In this document: positions 54,601-60,000 of the stretch, one piece after another
Layout: each line of letters begins with the position of its first letter
How positions within the stretch are numbered: the stretch's first letter is position 1
Program-made: the position numbers
Assembly (NCBI GenBank): GCA_037379345.1
Contig: CM074511.1
Location: 21,018,001-21,082,000, forward strand
Length of the DNA stretch: 64,000 nucleotides
Source: Perna viridis
Taxonomy: Eukaryota
Direction of reading: 5' to 3'

Positions 54601-57022
54601 AATGGTCTCCTTTATCATTTATTACATTTCAACAGTATATATGCATTTATTTTGATTACTTTTAATCGAAAGTCATTTTAATTTGTATAGCCTTGCCTTT
54701 CAAACATAATCTACTTTTGTTATTATAGAAAATATAAAAATATCAAACTTTTCATGGTTAAGATTTAATTCGATAACAGAAAGTAGCAAATAGTTTTAAT
54801 TTTAGAAAGGACAGTCTAAAATAATAATGTTTTATTGGTCTAGATTTTTACAAAATAATATTGCTCTACAAAAGAACATTAAAAATTGCTTTTTGTACGA
54901 CATTGACTGGTGTGTCTTATCTTTCAAGCAATAGTGGGAAAAAAGAGGAACTTGTTCTTGGGAATTATAATTTCTTTGCGTTACCCAAACTATCTCATAA
55001 GTCGAATTATCTGATTTATTATTCCATATTTACATGAACCATTTGAGTTAAACAATTCAAGAATTTCCTCTTTCGTCTACCCTGGACTTGACTTTTTATG
55101 AGCAACTCGGCGGGTGTTTCTAGAAAAGCAGAGGACGCTTACTTTACCTGGTCCATGCTCCCAGTTTTTAGTGGAGTTGCTCGTTTGCTTTTGTTACTTT
55201 GTATGCATTATTTTAGTTACTTTATGCTCTTTGTTGTGTATGTCTGTTTTCCATGTCTGGTCTTTATCCCTGGATTACATTCTATTTGTTACCGCTAGAA
55301 CCTTGGTTCCCTTGATTACTCTTCCTTCAAAGTGTCAATATCACGTATAATCTATAAAGTTTTATCTCAAAAGTGCAACAACTTAATGAAAACTATAACT
55401 GATATGTGGTATGTAACAAACTGAGAAATAAGATGGGCAAATAACAACCTTTAATACTCAAAAAATCAGTCTGTCTGGTGCTTTTCATTATCTTTTGGTC
55501 TTTGGAAGTAAAATTCGTTACACTTTTGTCTTGTAATGGTTTTTAATTCAAGATGTTACTTTATTTATTACTATCATTGATTTATTTTCAGTATGGTTTT
55601 GGATGACAGTTGGTCTTGCATCACTCTTGGCTCTGGTATTGTTACTGATACTACTGTTATTCCTTATAAGATACTGTTTTTGGTTAGTAACAATTAAAAC
55701 AGTAAATATTTACTTTTATTTCTATGTTTCTTACCCAATGGTGGTTGTCGATTTTAATAAATTATCAAAATTAATTTGTGATTACAGGTACATAAACTTT
55801 ACTTTATGACTTTAATTTTGTAATTTGGTAAAAGACATTGCTTAACTTTTACGCTTAGAATCCCTAAAAAGAAGCCCAAATCTCACATATTTTCATTTCG
55901 TGTCTCGCTCCGAATACATTTATTACATATTCCGATACATCTGTAAATATTGTTGAGACCGTTTTGACCACCAGTATGTTTACACACATTATTATTCTTT
56001 ATCGATTCTACGGACGAAAATTAACAACCTCGTTGGCTTGTTAAAAAATTAGATATAAGAATTTGAAAAAGTAATGTTAAACATTGTTTTTTACGCGGGA
56101 AAATAACATATATCTGTTTGTTTACCCAATCAGCTGGTGGTGCGAGTAAATAATGCTACAATAAGGATAATCCTATCTAAGGAAATACTGTCTGTAGTTT
56201 TCCAAATCGAAAGGGAAATACTACTGGTTTTGCAAAGGTGAAAAATAAAGTAAAATTTTGACATTTGTTGGGATAAGTTTGGGAAAATGTAGTTCCGTGA
56301 TTTTGAAGGCACCCTGTGTAAATATGAAAATATATTGGGAAAAAATATTTTTAAAAAATGTAATAACATTGATTTTCCAACAAAAGGTTTACCTTCAGTA
56401 GAAAAGTTGAATCCGGTTAGATGTATTGTGAAATAGATTTTCAATCTTTTTTAGCCACAAACGAAAAAGCCGGGTTTCAGAATTTATAGAAAGTCAAGAC
56501 AGATATGGAGATTCTTGTGGACCTTGTTGTGGTTTCGTAGACTACAAGGGATGCTGTTCTCTCTTCGGTTGTTGTGGATTCTTTGGATGTTGTGGTGGTT
56601 TTTGTGGTTGTTGCCGATGTTGCCGAGAGTTTCCAGGGGACACTGGTCCGGAATCATCAAACCATAATAATGTCAACCAACAGGGCAATAAACCAAGGAA
56701 AAAGAAAGTGTCCGTCAGGCAAACACAGACTTCACCGACGCCTACAGATTCGTCATATATACACGACGAAAAGAAGAAAATAGCAAAGGTCCTTAATGCT
56801 TGGATGCCACATTCACATACTGTACGAAACATAAACACCAGCACAAAATGAATTATGACAAAGAACAAACCAGAACAGAACTATTGCCCTGAACAAGTTA
56901 TAGTTCGAAAAAATTAATGTTAAAGTTTTATAGTAGTATGAAAACTATTAGCATCTCAACTTTTTCTAAATTTGAATATGATATGTTTATTTATCGCACC
57001 GCAGTCCATTTTTTACAGGATG

Positions 57023-57053
<31 letters not shown>

Positions 57054-60000
57054 TTCAAAATAATATAACTTATCTTCTCCTTTCATGGTTATTGGGCATT
57101 CTTCTCTTTTTGCTTCTGGCAATCTTTTTTTTTATGTATTTCATCAAAGTGAATGTCGCATCAAGAAATTACAGGTTCTTTAGTGTTTCGATCGATTATT
57201 TTTTATAAAATTTACAAATCTTCAAAAAGAACTACTTACGAAAATGTTAATCATAGAAACTTCCTGCTTTACGATAGTCTATTGAAGCATGCAATATTCT
57301 TACTTCGCTTTTTGTGCAACTTTTTTCTGGTTTCGGTTTACACACTCGTGTTATTTAACGCACCCTAGCTAGTTCCTAATGTGGTGTATAGTCACACTGT
57401 CTATTTCATTCTCGTTTCAGATGGACGGGGTATATATTATTTCTAATAACATTGATTCTACACATATTGTAAAACAGAAACCGAAGAAAGTTCATACGTC
57501 TGCTACACAGACCTATCCCATGTCACGTGATTTAGAAAATTCATTTGTGACACAGGAAAAGGATAATAAGAAGAAAACCGCCAAAGTTTTAAAAGCTTGG
57601 ATGCCTCATACACACGATCTCCGAGCAATAAATACCAGCACGAAGTAAACAAATCGGATATAACTTTCATTTAAATAATTCCAAGAAAGATACGGTAGAC
57701 AAATTAGTGTGTTCCATGATATACGAACGTTCGAAGGTCTCATATTGTTAACTTATTCTGTTTATAAGCAACAACACACATTTATTTGAATATGACTAAC
57801 GTAGAAGTGTCGCTTATAGGTCCATGTGTTTTCTTTGTTTTAGACATGTGTATTTTGTTCTTTAACTGTTTTTTTTTTATTCATCATGTATTGCCATTTC
57901 TGCCCTCTTTTTTATTTTCGTATTAGATTATTTCTATTTTGATTATTTGCTATGTTTATTTCGTACTCATTCATAGCTACATTTTTGTAGTGAACTCTTA
58001 TTACTTGTTTATGGGTAAAGATTTGGTGCATTTAATCAGTATTATGACTTCTTCTAAATTTAATTTTGTATTGTTTTGTTTTAGCTGATATATTTTGGAG
58101 ACAACTTTTTTTTCTTTTCAATTATCACAATGTGTGCGAACAAAGCTTTTTTTCCTTTTAAAAACAGTAAGTGCTGTGTTAACTTCGTTTTATGACTAAA
58201 AAATAAAGTTTCTAAAATCTCTTTCTATGTTTTATGTATGATATTTCTGAATGTATAAAATCTAATATTTTACATGGACAAAAAAAAACGAAATTGAAAT
58301 CCTGTAATAAAGGTAAGATATCCTGTGTTTAAGCCTTATCTGAAAATATTATTATTTTGCATTAGGTGTACATACTAAGCGACGTCAATCGGTTTGTTTA
58401 AAGACGGAAAGAAAAAAAAACAGGATTAAACTTGGGTAAAAAATACTACGTGAAACAACCACTGAAACGCTGAAAAACGTAAAATCTTTCGGAATGTTGG
58501 CAAGGATTGCAGCCATGATAATAGTTTTCTCCTTTCTCGTTAAGTTCATATTATGTCTGCTGGTATAATGATTTATTGCAAGTGTTAAACCACACTGCAC
58601 CCATTTCTGTACATACTGCAATGATGCATACCTTATCGAGTCGTACATTGAAAAGGTAGAGGAAATTGTTACACAAGATAAACGTTTTTAATAAGAAGAA
58701 CAAATATTATTTATTGAATATTCATGAAGATGGTGTGTTTCTTAAATAATTCTGAGTCGTTTTAAGTTCAAATGGAGATACTTTTTGTCAAATTAATTTT
58801 TAGAGTTTTTCCTTAAAACTAACACTCTGTATGAATGAGGAAGAAATGCCTAAAATGCTTAAGTTAATCTGGACTATCTTGCTTAACCTAATCTGGACAA
58901 AAATGCTGTAATTTACCTGGACTAAAATGCTTAACTTAACACTAAAATGCTTAATTTCATCTGAACTCAATTTCCTTAACTTAACCTAGACAAAAGTGCT
59001 TAACCTAATCTGGACTGAAATACTGAATTTAACCTGAACTAAAATGCTTAACTTAACACTAAATTGCTTAACTTAACCTGGACTATAAAACTTTGACTTC
59101 TTCTATCAGTTTGATAGTACTTGTTCACATTAATCATTCTTAAATTAAGTTGGGCTTTTCTATCAACACATTAAAACGGAAAGCGATTCTTTTTAGTTAA
59201 TTCAAACATTTTTTTTTAATTTTCTTATTTTTTGCTTTTTTTTTTATTTGTTTAAATGCTTGTTTAGCATTATCATTATTTATTTTTGTTTTAACCATAG
59301 AACGGCATCAATATCCAAGTTTTGCATTTTTTATCTAAATTTAAACAACCCTCAAGAGAAATTTTCACAACTTTTAATCAAGATCAATCTGTCAGGTCAC
59401 AAGTTCAACTTCATACATTATACATTATAGCAAATAATACTTATTAGCTTTAAAAAAGCATGATAAATCCCTAGTAATTTGTAAATGTTTAACTAGATCT
59501 TTTAGCGTTTATATTGTATGTTCTTATATAATCCACAAGTTTACTCTAACTGTACAGTATTGTACGAAGTGAACTTGAAAAGAAGATCGCCAATATTTTG
59601 TATATACACTTAAAATGATATAGAATGCATTTAAAAATCTTGACCTAGTAAGTTACTATTTATTTAAACAAAAAGTATTTAGTATGCAAACACGCTAATT
59701 AAAATATCTTCACTTCTTACCTTCGTTAGAGGTTAAGTTTAAGTTAAGCCTTTATAAGAAATACATTGCTCCGAATGGCTTAATTAGTCCAAAGAACGCA
59801 GCTATCTATGTTTATGTGACGGCGTTGTTGGACACTTCTTCCTCGTAAAATAATACAAAAACATTTCGACTTGTTAGCACGATAATGAAAAAATGAATAC
59901 AATTTGGTAAAGGTTTTATTGACCTTTTGTGTTTTCTTCTGTTTCAATATCTTTATTTGCAGATGTATTATCAATTTGTTTTCTTTATAGTTTTGGTAGT

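What the first reader, a model, noticed from the sequence alone, without database searches (positions are those of the whole stretch)
56455..57648. Two paralogous terminal exons in tandem after one TM exon
SEEN: T1 (phase 2) joins the TM exon directly. T2 lies 570 bp further on, has a strong phase-0 acceptor and resembles the 3' half of T1 (KKV..xxTQT.P...KKxAKVLxAWMPH), but lacks the Cys/Gly block. It needs a phase-0 donor. Candidates are weak internal GT sites in T1 or the bridging exon 57019-57148. A phase-2 acceptor at 57368 runs straight into TAG. INFERENCE: either alternative last exons that toggle the Cys-rich block, or the relic of another paralog.
Basis: partly seen in the sequence, partly recalled or inferred. 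Interest (0 to 1): 0.65.

Follow-up and report, generated by a model that had tools for sequence, protein, structure and literature searches.

The report
Duplicated tail exon in mussel-like Sushi gene
The second tail exon is most likely a real coding exon of the same small membrane-protein gene, joined from a splice site inside the first tail exon, so both protein forms end in the same conserved motif; this is a known kind of gene layout.

Summary
T1 (56455-56851) and T2 (57421-57648) are paralogous: 31 of 58 residues identical, E 1e-15.

The gene encodes a small protein: an ATG-plus-Sushi first exon, a TM exon, a Cys-rich block and a tail ending WMPHxHxxRxINTSTK. The window holds six such tails, all on the + strand.

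The nearest database relatives settle the phase-0 donor. Two NCBI models, Mytilus californianus LOC127707718 isoform X1 and M. trossulus LOC134728063 isoform X2, run Sushi-TM-T1 up to ...KKKIAK and then straight into a T2-type exon. In the window this is donor AAG|GTCCTT (exon end 56788, phase 0) joined to acceptor 57421.

The Cys block lies upstream of that donor, so it is not toggled. Splicing removes T1's last 20 codons and adds 75 paralogous ones.

Both T1's last 20 codons and T2 look selected (pS 0.65, pN 0.18). A 228-aa relative ends in a full T1. T1 therefore probably acts as a composite internal/terminal exon.

The "bridging exon" (57019-57148) is probably a chance hydrophobic frame. 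No transcript data for this genome could be examined. The layout is ordinary in kind and already annotated in relatives.

The parts
27101..27293 (+). ATG + Sushi first coding exon (S27), phase-1 donor AATG|gtatgt
   Evidence: Pfam Sushi E 3.7e-10. ATG two codons before the first Cys, frame intact.
36243..36435 (+). ATG + Sushi first coding exon (S36), phase-1 donor AATG|gtcagt. Closest of the three to the Mytilus models (62-64% identity).
   Evidence: Pfam Sushi E 2e-9.
44856..45048 (+). ATG + Sushi first coding exon (S45), phase-1 donor AATG|gtgaga
   Evidence: Pfam Sushi E 3.6e-12.
55592..55682 (+). TM exon (TM1): ..VWFWMTVGLASLLALVLLLILLLFLIRYCF.. Phase-1 acceptor, phase-2 donor TG|gttagt.
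   Evidence: Same residues in P0001, P0013 and P0014. Same 1->2 phases as the TM exons of paralogs B, C and D.
56455..56788 (+). T1a, the constant part of tail exon 1: basic stretch, Cys/Gly block, Ser/Thr/Lys linker up to ..DEKKKIAK. Ends at the internal donor AAG|gtcctt (phase 0).
   Evidence: The NCBI models P0001 and P0013 end their T1 part at the aligned K.
56789..56851 (+). T1b: last 20 codons of T1 (VLNAWMPHSHTVRNINTSTK) plus TGA. Coding if the intron is not removed, otherwise the 5' end of the intron.
   Evidence: Every residue shared by all six window tails is kept (W, P, R, NTSTK, stop). pS 0.65 and pN 0.18 against T2.
56789..57420 (+). Inferred optional intron (632 nt), gtcctt...tttcag
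   Evidence: Inferred from the junction in P0001 and P0013. No transcript of this genome was seen.
57019..57148 (+). Probably not an exon.
   Evidence: Phases 2->0, not the family's 1->2. No WFW motif or Cys after the helix. No tblastn match to any family TM exon. Absent from P0001 and P0013.
57421..57648 (+). T2: 75 codons plus TAA, MDGVYIISNN....KKKTAKVLKAWMPHTHDLRAINTSTK. Phase-0 acceptor.
   Evidence: Aligns end to end with the last exon of P0001 and P0013 and with P0007.
58202..58207 (+). First canonical AATAAA after T2, 554 nt past its stop. Candidate poly(A) signal for the whole gene.
   Evidence: None (AATAAA or ATTAAA) lies between T1's stop and T2. This is a weak point: 20% of random 569-nt windows also have none.

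Best explanation
T1 and T2 belong to one gene for a small membrane protein. The gene has an N-terminal Sushi domain placed directly after the start Met, one TM helix, a juxtamembrane Cys-rich block, a basic Ser/Thr-rich linker and a conserved C-terminal motif WMPHxHxxRxINTSTK.

T2 arose by an old tandem duplication of the 3' third of T1.

T1 works as a composite exon, with two outcomes:
- Read through, it ends the protein at its own stop. This short form is about 226 aa by arithmetic on exon lengths.
- If the internal donor AAG|GTCCTT (56788|56789, phase 0) is spliced to the acceptor at 57421, T1's last 20 codons and stop are removed and T2's 75 codons are added. This long form is about 281 aa.

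The donor sits at the K|V that opens the terminal motif. Both forms therefore keep the Cys block and both end in one copy of the same motif. The long form gains an extra linker module, including the conserved MDGVYIISNN start.

What is shown: the homology, the phases, the open frames, the selection signature, and the junction in two NCBI models of relatives.

What is inferred: that this junction is used in this genome, that both forms are made, and what the tail does. My guess, recalled and untested, is palmitoylated Cys residues and a motif that needs a free C-terminus.
For: (1) Homology. T1 against T2 gives 31/58 identical, E 1e-15.

(2) Junction in relatives. A search of 1.84 billion representatives with the T1 exon gave 12 hits at E <= 1e-3.
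- The best hit, P0001, is 282 aa and named 'LOC127707718 isoform X1 [Mytilus californianus]'. P0013 is 283 aa and named 'LOC134728063 isoform X2 [Mytilus trossulus]'.
- Both read Sushi-TM-T1 to ..KKKIAK and then M[GN]DVYIISN...AWMPHSHDVRxINTSTK.
- In alignment, their last T1 residue is the K at window 56786-88 and their next residue is the M at 57421.

(3) Donor quality. Of the 7 phase-0 GT sites inside T1, 56788 matches MAG|GTRAGT best, at 6 of 8 scored positions.

(4) T2 conservation. T2 is open for 75 codons, and its start and end are conserved in 4 of 4 T2-type sequences.

(5) Selection. T1b against the T2 end over 20 codons: 8.5 synonymous differences on 13.2 sites against 8.5 non-synonymous on 46.8. 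After rounding, Fisher p = 6e-4. Both ends have therefore been kept as coding sequence.

(6) A T1-terminated relative. P0014 is 228 aa, from source 'lgn', on a contig of 3567 nt. It is Sushi-TM-full T1 ending VLTVWMPHTHNKRSINTSTK. An unbroken frame on so short a contig suggests a spliced transcript; that is my inference.

(7) Lengths. The arithmetic lengths of 226 and 281 aa fit 228 and 282/283 aa.
Against: - No transcript, read or annotation of this genome was available, so the junction is carried over from relatives. Those relatives are only about 50-75% identical in these exons.
- NCBI models are predictions.
- The donor GTCCTT is weak.
- No canonical poly(A) hexamer follows T1's stop. The short form would then need intron retention rather than its own 3' end. 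Tails A, B, C and D (4 of 4) have a hexamer 11-398 nt past the stop. However, 20% of random 569-nt windows also lack one.
- P0014 may come from a paralog that has no T2, so it does not prove a short form at this locus.
- The selection test rests on 20-26 codons and covers both lineages together.
Confidence: 0.62

Rival explanations
1. Only the long form exists. The 56788^57421 splice is constitutive, T2 is the single true last exon, and T1b with its stop is simply intron sequence that still looks like the ancestral end.
For: - Both named NCBI relatives show the spliced form.
- No AATAAA or ATTAAA lies between T1's stop and T2, whereas the other four tails in the window have one within 11-398 nt.
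- Paralogs A, B and C also end in short phase-0 terminal exons like T2.
Against: - T1b keeps every residue shared by all six window tails and a stop at the family's position. Synonymous sites against T2 are near saturation (pS 0.65, pN 0.18). Intron sequence of that age should have decayed.
- A T1-terminated protein exists among relatives (P0014).
- The missing poly(A) hexamer is not significant.
Confidence: 0.2
2. T2 is reached through exon 57019-57148, either from TM1 (TG+G = Trp, then in frame to the phase-0 donor at 57148) or from its own ATG at 57020. This would give a form without the Cys block, which is the reader's 'toggle', or a separate mini-gene.
For: - The path is open in frame. 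The acceptor tttttacag|G and the donor AAA|gtgaat both look usable.
- The frame encodes a 23-residue hydrophobic helix.
- T1b can pair with 57104-57175 at -30.9 kcal/mol, and only 2 of 300 shuffles reach this. That could hint at regulated choice.
Against: - The two Mytilus models do not contain it.
- Its phases are 2->0, whereas the TM exons of B, C, D and TM1 (4 of 4) are 1->2.
- It has no WFW start and no Cys/basic stretch after the helix, and no tblastn match to family TM exons.
- A third of it is a (TTA)n microsatellite read as poly-Tyr.
- A second helix after TM1 would place the Lys-rich T2 outside the cell, against the positive-inside rule (established knowledge).
- Hydrophobic frames are common here. 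About 30 regions pass the same threshold in 64 kb, so roughly 0.2-0.3 are expected in this 570-nt gap (my arithmetic).
Confidence: 0.08
3. T2 is a dead relic of a partial duplication and is never part of a mature mRNA. On this view the Mytilus models are over-extended predictions.
For: - No transcript evidence for this genome.
- The donor is weak.
- P0007 (73 aa) shows that open-frame callers can pick up T2-type exons on their own.
Against: - At about 7% stops per codon (my estimate), 75 open codons in 32% GC DNA have a chance of roughly 0.4%.
- The exon's first residues, its motif and its stop position are kept in 4 of 4 T2-type sequences at about 50% identity.
- pN is far below pS.
- The acceptor is strong.
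Confidence: 0.05

Closest known systems
Composite terminal exons (internal 5' splice site versus terminal use). The immunoglobulin mu secreted/membrane switch is the textbook case (recalled). The term is used as in PMC4227790, of which I read passages.
   Same: One exon carries its own stop and can end the message. Alternatively, an internal donor upstream of that stop joins it to a downstream terminal exon, changing the C-terminus.
   Different: - The two alternative ends are paralogs and finish in the same conserved motif, so the switch inserts a module rather than swapping function.
- No canonical poly(A) hexamer was found behind the composite exon, so the mechanism may be intron retention rather than poly(A) site choice.
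Tandem exon duplication with alternative use, including duplicated terminal exons (pip in Drosophila) and duplicated initial exons (hydra). Source: PMC9013439, of which I read the abstract and passages.
   Same: A neighbouring homologous copy of an exon, kept under selection and used as an alternative. The three Sushi first exons upstream of one TM exon would also match the 'duplicated initial exons' pattern.
   Different: - This is not a like-for-like substitution. T2 copies only the 3' third of T1.
- The acceptor phases differ (2 and 0), and T2 is added to most of T1 rather than replacing it.
NCBI models LOC127707718 isoform X1 (Mytilus californianus) and LOC134728063 isoform X2 (M. trossulus), 'uncharacterized protein'.
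   Same: Same architecture and the same T1a|T2 junction. Identity is 53-75% in T1 and about 50% in T2.
   Different: - The identity is too low for the window to be the same locus of either species. It is a more distant orthologue or a paralog.
- No function is given for these models by their source.
SUSD3-type single-Sushi membrane proteins of vertebrates. This is a lead from the ESM Atlas only: score 0.88, below the tool's 0.9 line.
   Same: A small protein with one Sushi domain, one TM helix and a cytoplasmic tail.
   Different: - No sequence match outside the Sushi domain was shown.
- The Cys block and the INTSTK end have no Pfam family and no PDB relative (13 rows, best E 0.27).

Membership tests
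Sushi/CCP domain proteins (PF00084) | Match to the Sushi profile above the gathering score, with four Cys and the Trp | tested here: met
   Six of six candidate exons in the window score 38-47 bits against a cut-off of 20.7. P0013 and P0014 also match. This applies to the gene's first exon, not to T1 or T2, which match no Pfam family at E <= 1.
Window's own tail family (..W[MK]P[HF]x4Rx2NTSTK-stop) | C-terminal motif directly followed by a stop | tested here: met
   Exactly six NTSTK-stop matches in six frames, all on the + strand, including T1 and T2. By my reading, 11 of 12 database representatives end in NTST[KR].
Composite terminal exon | Exon with its own in-frame stop, plus an internal donor upstream of it that joins a downstream exon in frame | tested here: met
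   Stop at 56849-51. Donor at 56788 in phase 0 and acceptor at 57421 in phase 0. The junction is present in two NCBI relatives. Use in this genome was not observed.
Composite terminal exon | Poly(A) site in the intron behind the composite exon | tested here: inconclusive
   No AATAAA or ATTAAA in 569 nt. One TATAAA and one AATATA are present. The absence is not significant, because 20% of random windows also lack one.
Mutually exclusive tandem-duplicated exons | Homologous neighbouring exons of like length and the same phases, one replacing the other | tested here: not met
   Homology is present. But the exons are 397 and 228 nt, with acceptor phases 2 and 0. TM1 joined to T2 gives TGA at once.
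Independent paralog unit (TM exon + tail exon), as in B, C and D | Own homologous TM exon with phases 1->2 and a V/A-W-F/L-W start, and its own Sushi exon | tested here: not met
   57019-57148 has phases 2->0, no such motif and no similarity to family TM exons. No Sushi exon lies between T1 and T2.
Alternative first exons sharing constant 3' exons (hydra or protocadherin-type layout) | Several homologous first exons, each with its own start and a donor that fits one common downstream acceptor | tested here: inconclusive
   Three intact ATG-Sushi exons with phase-1 donors lie upstream of a single TM exon with a phase-1 acceptor. No other TM or tail exon was found between 17 and 55 kb. Separate promoters and transcripts cannot be tested here.

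The most novel reading that the evidence does not exclude
The locus is a small 'variable-constant' gene. Three selected ATG-Sushi first exons (27.1, 36.2 and 44.9 kb) would each splice to one shared TM exon. A composite T1/T2 end would then give two tail lengths. The result would be up to six receptor-like isoforms from one mussel gene, all finishing in the same free C-terminal INTSTK motif. The duplicated end would have been shaped so that splicing always leaves exactly one copy of that motif.
Probability: 0.3. Interest if true: 0.5.

Novelty: new member of a known kind. Interest (0 to 1): 0.3.

Why it matters
- It turns an odd-looking pair of tail exons into a testable gene model with one exact junction (56788^57421) and two predicted protein lengths.
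- It shows that the Cys-rich block is constant rather than switched.
- The family is small and apparently restricted to molluscs: 12 representatives at E <= 1e-3 in 1.84 billion. Only two hits carry an organism name, both Mytilus. One Atlas cluster of 55 members is mostly Mollusca.
- The family has no described function. A tail motif kept at the very C-terminus in every copy and in both isoforms is a clear handle for finding its binding partner.
- For genome annotation, it warns that the first stop after a TM exon need not be the end of the protein.

Tried and rejected
- My first idea (note) was that 57019-57148 plus T2 form a sixth TM+tail unit. I dropped it after the relatives' models and the phase and motif comparison.
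- Pfam on T1, T2 and tail D gave no family at E <= 1.
- The PDB sequence search with T1 gave 13 rows, best E 0.27, none meaningful.
- The ESM Atlas with the T1 exon gave no answer. With P0013 it returned only Sushi-bearing clusters below 0.9.
The other isoforms of the two Mytilus loci, and the sources of P0002-P0012, therefore stayed unseen.
- blastn of the three Sushi-exon neighbourhoods against the window found no shared flanks, only interspersed repeats.
- The poly(A) hexamer argument was tested and found non-significant.
- The inverted-repeat scan of the intron gave 13 short pairs. The longest is 23 nt at 78% complementarity, followed up only.
- Pfam on four repeat-derived frames gave nothing at E <= 0.01.
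- Genome contigs (bacteria and archaea), phage, plasmid and E. coli collections were not used, being irrelevant to an animal locus.
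Full report
**What the window is.** The window has no N and is 28-40% GC. Its best protein relatives are NCBI models from the mussels Mytilus californianus and M. trossulus. I take it for a mussel-like mollusc contig, not for human. All remote searches were made exon by exon. The protein lengths given below are arithmetic on exon lengths.

**Check of the observation.**
- The TM exon is 55592-55682, with acceptor ttttcag|TA and donor TG|gttagt, leaving two bases.
- T1 begins at 56455 with the one base that completes that codon as Cys. 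It stays open to the TGA at 56849-51.
- T1 reads HKRKSRVSEF.., then a Cys/Gly block (CGPCCGFVDYKGCCSLFGCCGFFGCCGGFCGCCRCC), then a basic Ser/Thr-rich stretch, and ends ..DEKKKIAKVLNAWMPHSHTVRNINTSTK.
- T2 begins at 57421 behind a strong acceptor (16 of 20 pyrimidines), in phase 0. It reads MDGVYIISNN...KKKTAKVLKAWMPHTHDLRAINTSTK to the TAA at 57646-48.
- BLASTP of the two exons gives 31/58 identities, E 1e-15. DNA similarity survives only in the last 77 nt, at 74%.
- The AG at 57367-68 does run into TAG 57370-72.

**The family in the window.**
- tblastn and a motif scan find exactly six frames ending NTSTK-stop, all on the + strand. They end at 801, 10283, 14876, 16651, 56851 and 57648.
- Six Sushi exons, also on the + strand, lie at about 7.3, 12.2, 15.3, 27.1, 36.2 and 44.9 kb. 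In each, an ATG sits one to three codons before the first Cys.
- The four whose donor I read (D, S27, S36, S45) end AATG|GT in phase 1.
- The database relatives also start M-x-C with no signal peptide.
- TM exons with phase 1 -> 2 follow in paralogs B (about 8.2 kb), C (about 12.8 kb), D (15668-15772) and at TM1.
- The basic gene is therefore ATG-Sushi exon, TM exon, then tail exon(s).
- D and T1 carry the whole tail in one exon entered in phase 2. A, B and C end in a short exon entered in phase 0, as T2 is.

**Where T2 gets its phase-0 donor.**
- HMMER of the T1 exon against 1.84 billion representatives gave 12 proteins at E <= 1e-3, 4 at <= 1e-10 and 1 at <= 1e-30.
- The three word-index searches gave 2 of 17, 2 of 34 and 1 of 2 candidates.
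- P0001 (282 aa, 'LOC127707718 isoform X1 [Mytilus californianus]') and P0013 (283 aa, 'LOC134728063 isoform X2 [Mytilus trossulus]') both read Sushi, VWFWMTVGLASLLAL.. helix, RYCCCH[KR]RKSRVSE.., the Cys block..KKKVSVRQTQTSPTPTD..[DE]EKKKIAK, and then directly M[GN]DVYIISN[HN]VDSTQ...KKKAKVL[TK]AWMPHSHDVRxINTSTK.
- Aligned exon-wise, their T1 part stops at the K encoded by 56786-88, and their next residue is the M at 57421.
- At 56788|56789 the window reads AAG|GTCCTT, in phase 0. Among the seven phase-0 GTs inside T1, this one fits the donor consensus best, at 6 of 8 scored positions.
The implied intron is 56789-57420 (632 nt).

**Consequences for the protein.**
- The Cys block lies upstream of the donor and is present with or without the splice.
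- The splice removes VLNAWMPHSHTVRNINTSTK-stop and adds the 75 residues of T2, which end in the paralogous VLKAWMPHTHDLRAINTSTK.
- By arithmetic the two forms are 226 aa (64+1+29+1+131) and 281 aa (64+1+29+1+111+75). Relatives measure 228 aa (P0014) and 282/283 aa (P0001, P0013).
- TM1 joined directly to T2 would read TG+A = TGA, so no Cys-less form with a T2 tail arises that way.

**Are both ends used?**
- T2 is open, and its first residues, its motif and its stop are conserved in 4 of 4 T2-type sequences: the window, P0001, P0013 and the 73-aa P0007.
- T1b against the T2 end shows 8.5 synonymous differences on 13.2 sites and 8.5 non-synonymous on 46.8 (pS 0.65, pN 0.18; Fisher p = 6e-4 after rounding).
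- The same pattern holds for all 15 pairs among the six tails: pS 0.63-1.27 and pN 0.08-0.32 over 16 codons, with values above 1 showing how small the sample is.
- T1b keeps every residue shared by all six tails, and a stop at the family's position. That is hard to reconcile with T1b having been plain intron since a duplication that predates the split from Mytilus.
- P0014 (228 aa, unnamed source 'lgn', 14 member sequences, contig of 3567 nt) is a Sushi-TM-full-T1 protein. An unbroken frame on so short a contig suggests a spliced message (my inference). It may, however, come from a paralog without T2.
- Against a separate 3' end for T1: no AATAAA or ATTAAA lies in the 569 nt before T2. Tails A-D have one 11-398 nt past the stop, and T2 has one at 58202. 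With 2.97 such hexamers per kb, 20% of random 569-nt windows also have none, so this is only a hint that the short form would come from intron retention.

**The 'bridging exon'.** 57019-57148 has usable-looking sites and an open frame with a hydrophobic helix. The path TM1 -> 57019 (TG+G = Trp) -> 57148 -> 57421 is in frame. I still rate it chance, for these reasons:
- It is absent from both Mytilus models.
- Its phases (2 -> 0) differ from the four family TM exons (1 -> 2).
- It lacks the WFW start and the Cys/basic stretch after the helix, and it matches no family TM exon.
- It holds a (TTA)9.7 microsatellite read as poly-Tyr.
- A second helix would put the Lys-rich tail outside the cell.
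- Hydrophobic frames of this strength occur about 30 times in the window's three + frames.

**Comparison with what is known.**
- The layout is a composite terminal exon, using the term as in PMC4227790 (passages read). The immunoglobulin mu case is recalled from memory.
- It was built by a partial tandem exon duplication. Duplicated terminal and initial exons used as alternatives are described for Drosophila pip and hydra in PMC9013439 (abstract and passages read).
- It fails the test for mutually exclusive duplicated exons, because lengths and phases differ.
- The protein family has no Pfam model outside the Sushi domain and no PDB relative. The Atlas lead to SUSD3-type proteins scored 0.88, below the tool's own line.
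- I ran no paper search for the family itself. My two paper searches were about the splicing concepts, so I make no claim that the family is absent from print. Supplementary files were not consulted.

**What stays open.**
- No transcript of this genome was seen.
- Whether the Mytilus loci keep a T1b is unknown.
- It is also open whether the three Sushi first exons are alternative starts of one gene. All three are intact, with pS 0.73-0.80 and pN 0.26-0.33 between them. Only one TM exon and one T1/T2 module lie downstream, and no other tail or family-type TM exon was found between 17 and 55 kb.

**Verdict.**
- T2 is best read as a genuine last coding exon reached from an internal donor in T1.
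- The 'toggle of the Cys block' and the 'relic' readings are unlikely.
- The arrangement is a known kind and is already modelled by NCBI in two relatives.

Noticed in passing
window 27101-27293, 36243-36435, 44856-45048, with 55592-55682: Three intact, selected ATG-Sushi first exons (pS 0.73-0.80, pN 0.26-0.33). All have phase-1 AATG|GT donors and lie 8.6-10.5 kb apart upstream of a single phase-1 TM acceptor. No other family TM or tail exon was found between 17 and 55 kb. They may be alternative first exons of one gene.
   Followed up: partly
window 640-801, 7318-10283, 12189-14876, 15254-16651: Four further paralogs (A-D) of the same Sushi-TM-INTSTK family lie in tandem on the + strand. D is compact: Sushi 15254-15449, TM 15668-15772, tail 16207-16651. 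Its motif has changed from WMPH to WKPF. I could not build a consistent frame for the middle exon of B (9745-9883).
   Followed up: partly
window-wide; database proteins P0001-P0014: No family member shows a signal peptide. The Sushi domain follows the start Met within 1-7 residues in the window and in the relatives that carry one, by my reading. This implies N-terminal translocation by the TM helix alone (a type III topology), which I infer and did not test.
   Followed up: no
window 56789-56851 with 57104-57175: The stretch just after the internal donor (T1b) can pair with the 3' end and donor region of the 'bridging exon'. RNAduplex gives -30.9 kcal/mol against -23.6 +/- 3.0 for 300 mononucleotide shuffles, 2 of which are as low. 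A 23-nt arm pair at 78% complementarity was seen. It could influence donor choice. This was a post hoc test.
   Followed up: partly
window 27275-27313 and 27335-27373: A 39-nt direct repeat at 92% identity, 60 nt apart, duplicates the 3' end and donor of Sushi exon S27. The second copy has GTT in place of GGT at the donor.
   Followed up: no
window 55064-55337 and at least 8 other places (for example 22758-23030, 41452-41735, 53256-52988): An interspersed repeat of about 270 nt at 74-87% identity lies on both strands, one copy 250 nt upstream of the TM exon. It reads as ..FDYRYNLGSLDYS.. in one frame.
   Followed up: no
window 22137-22751 (+) and 53263-54111 (-); also 29429-30362 (+): Long open frames that look like transposon remnants. 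The first two are copies of each other on opposite strands. None has a Pfam match at E <= 0.01.
   Followed up: partly
window 6401-6736: Two overlapping frames read a repeated unit (..GMGYPWHASCWGCQALVVEWGTPGMLHAGVVRPWWW..). A related stretch lies on the - strand at 30469-30840. There is no Pfam match.
   Followed up: no
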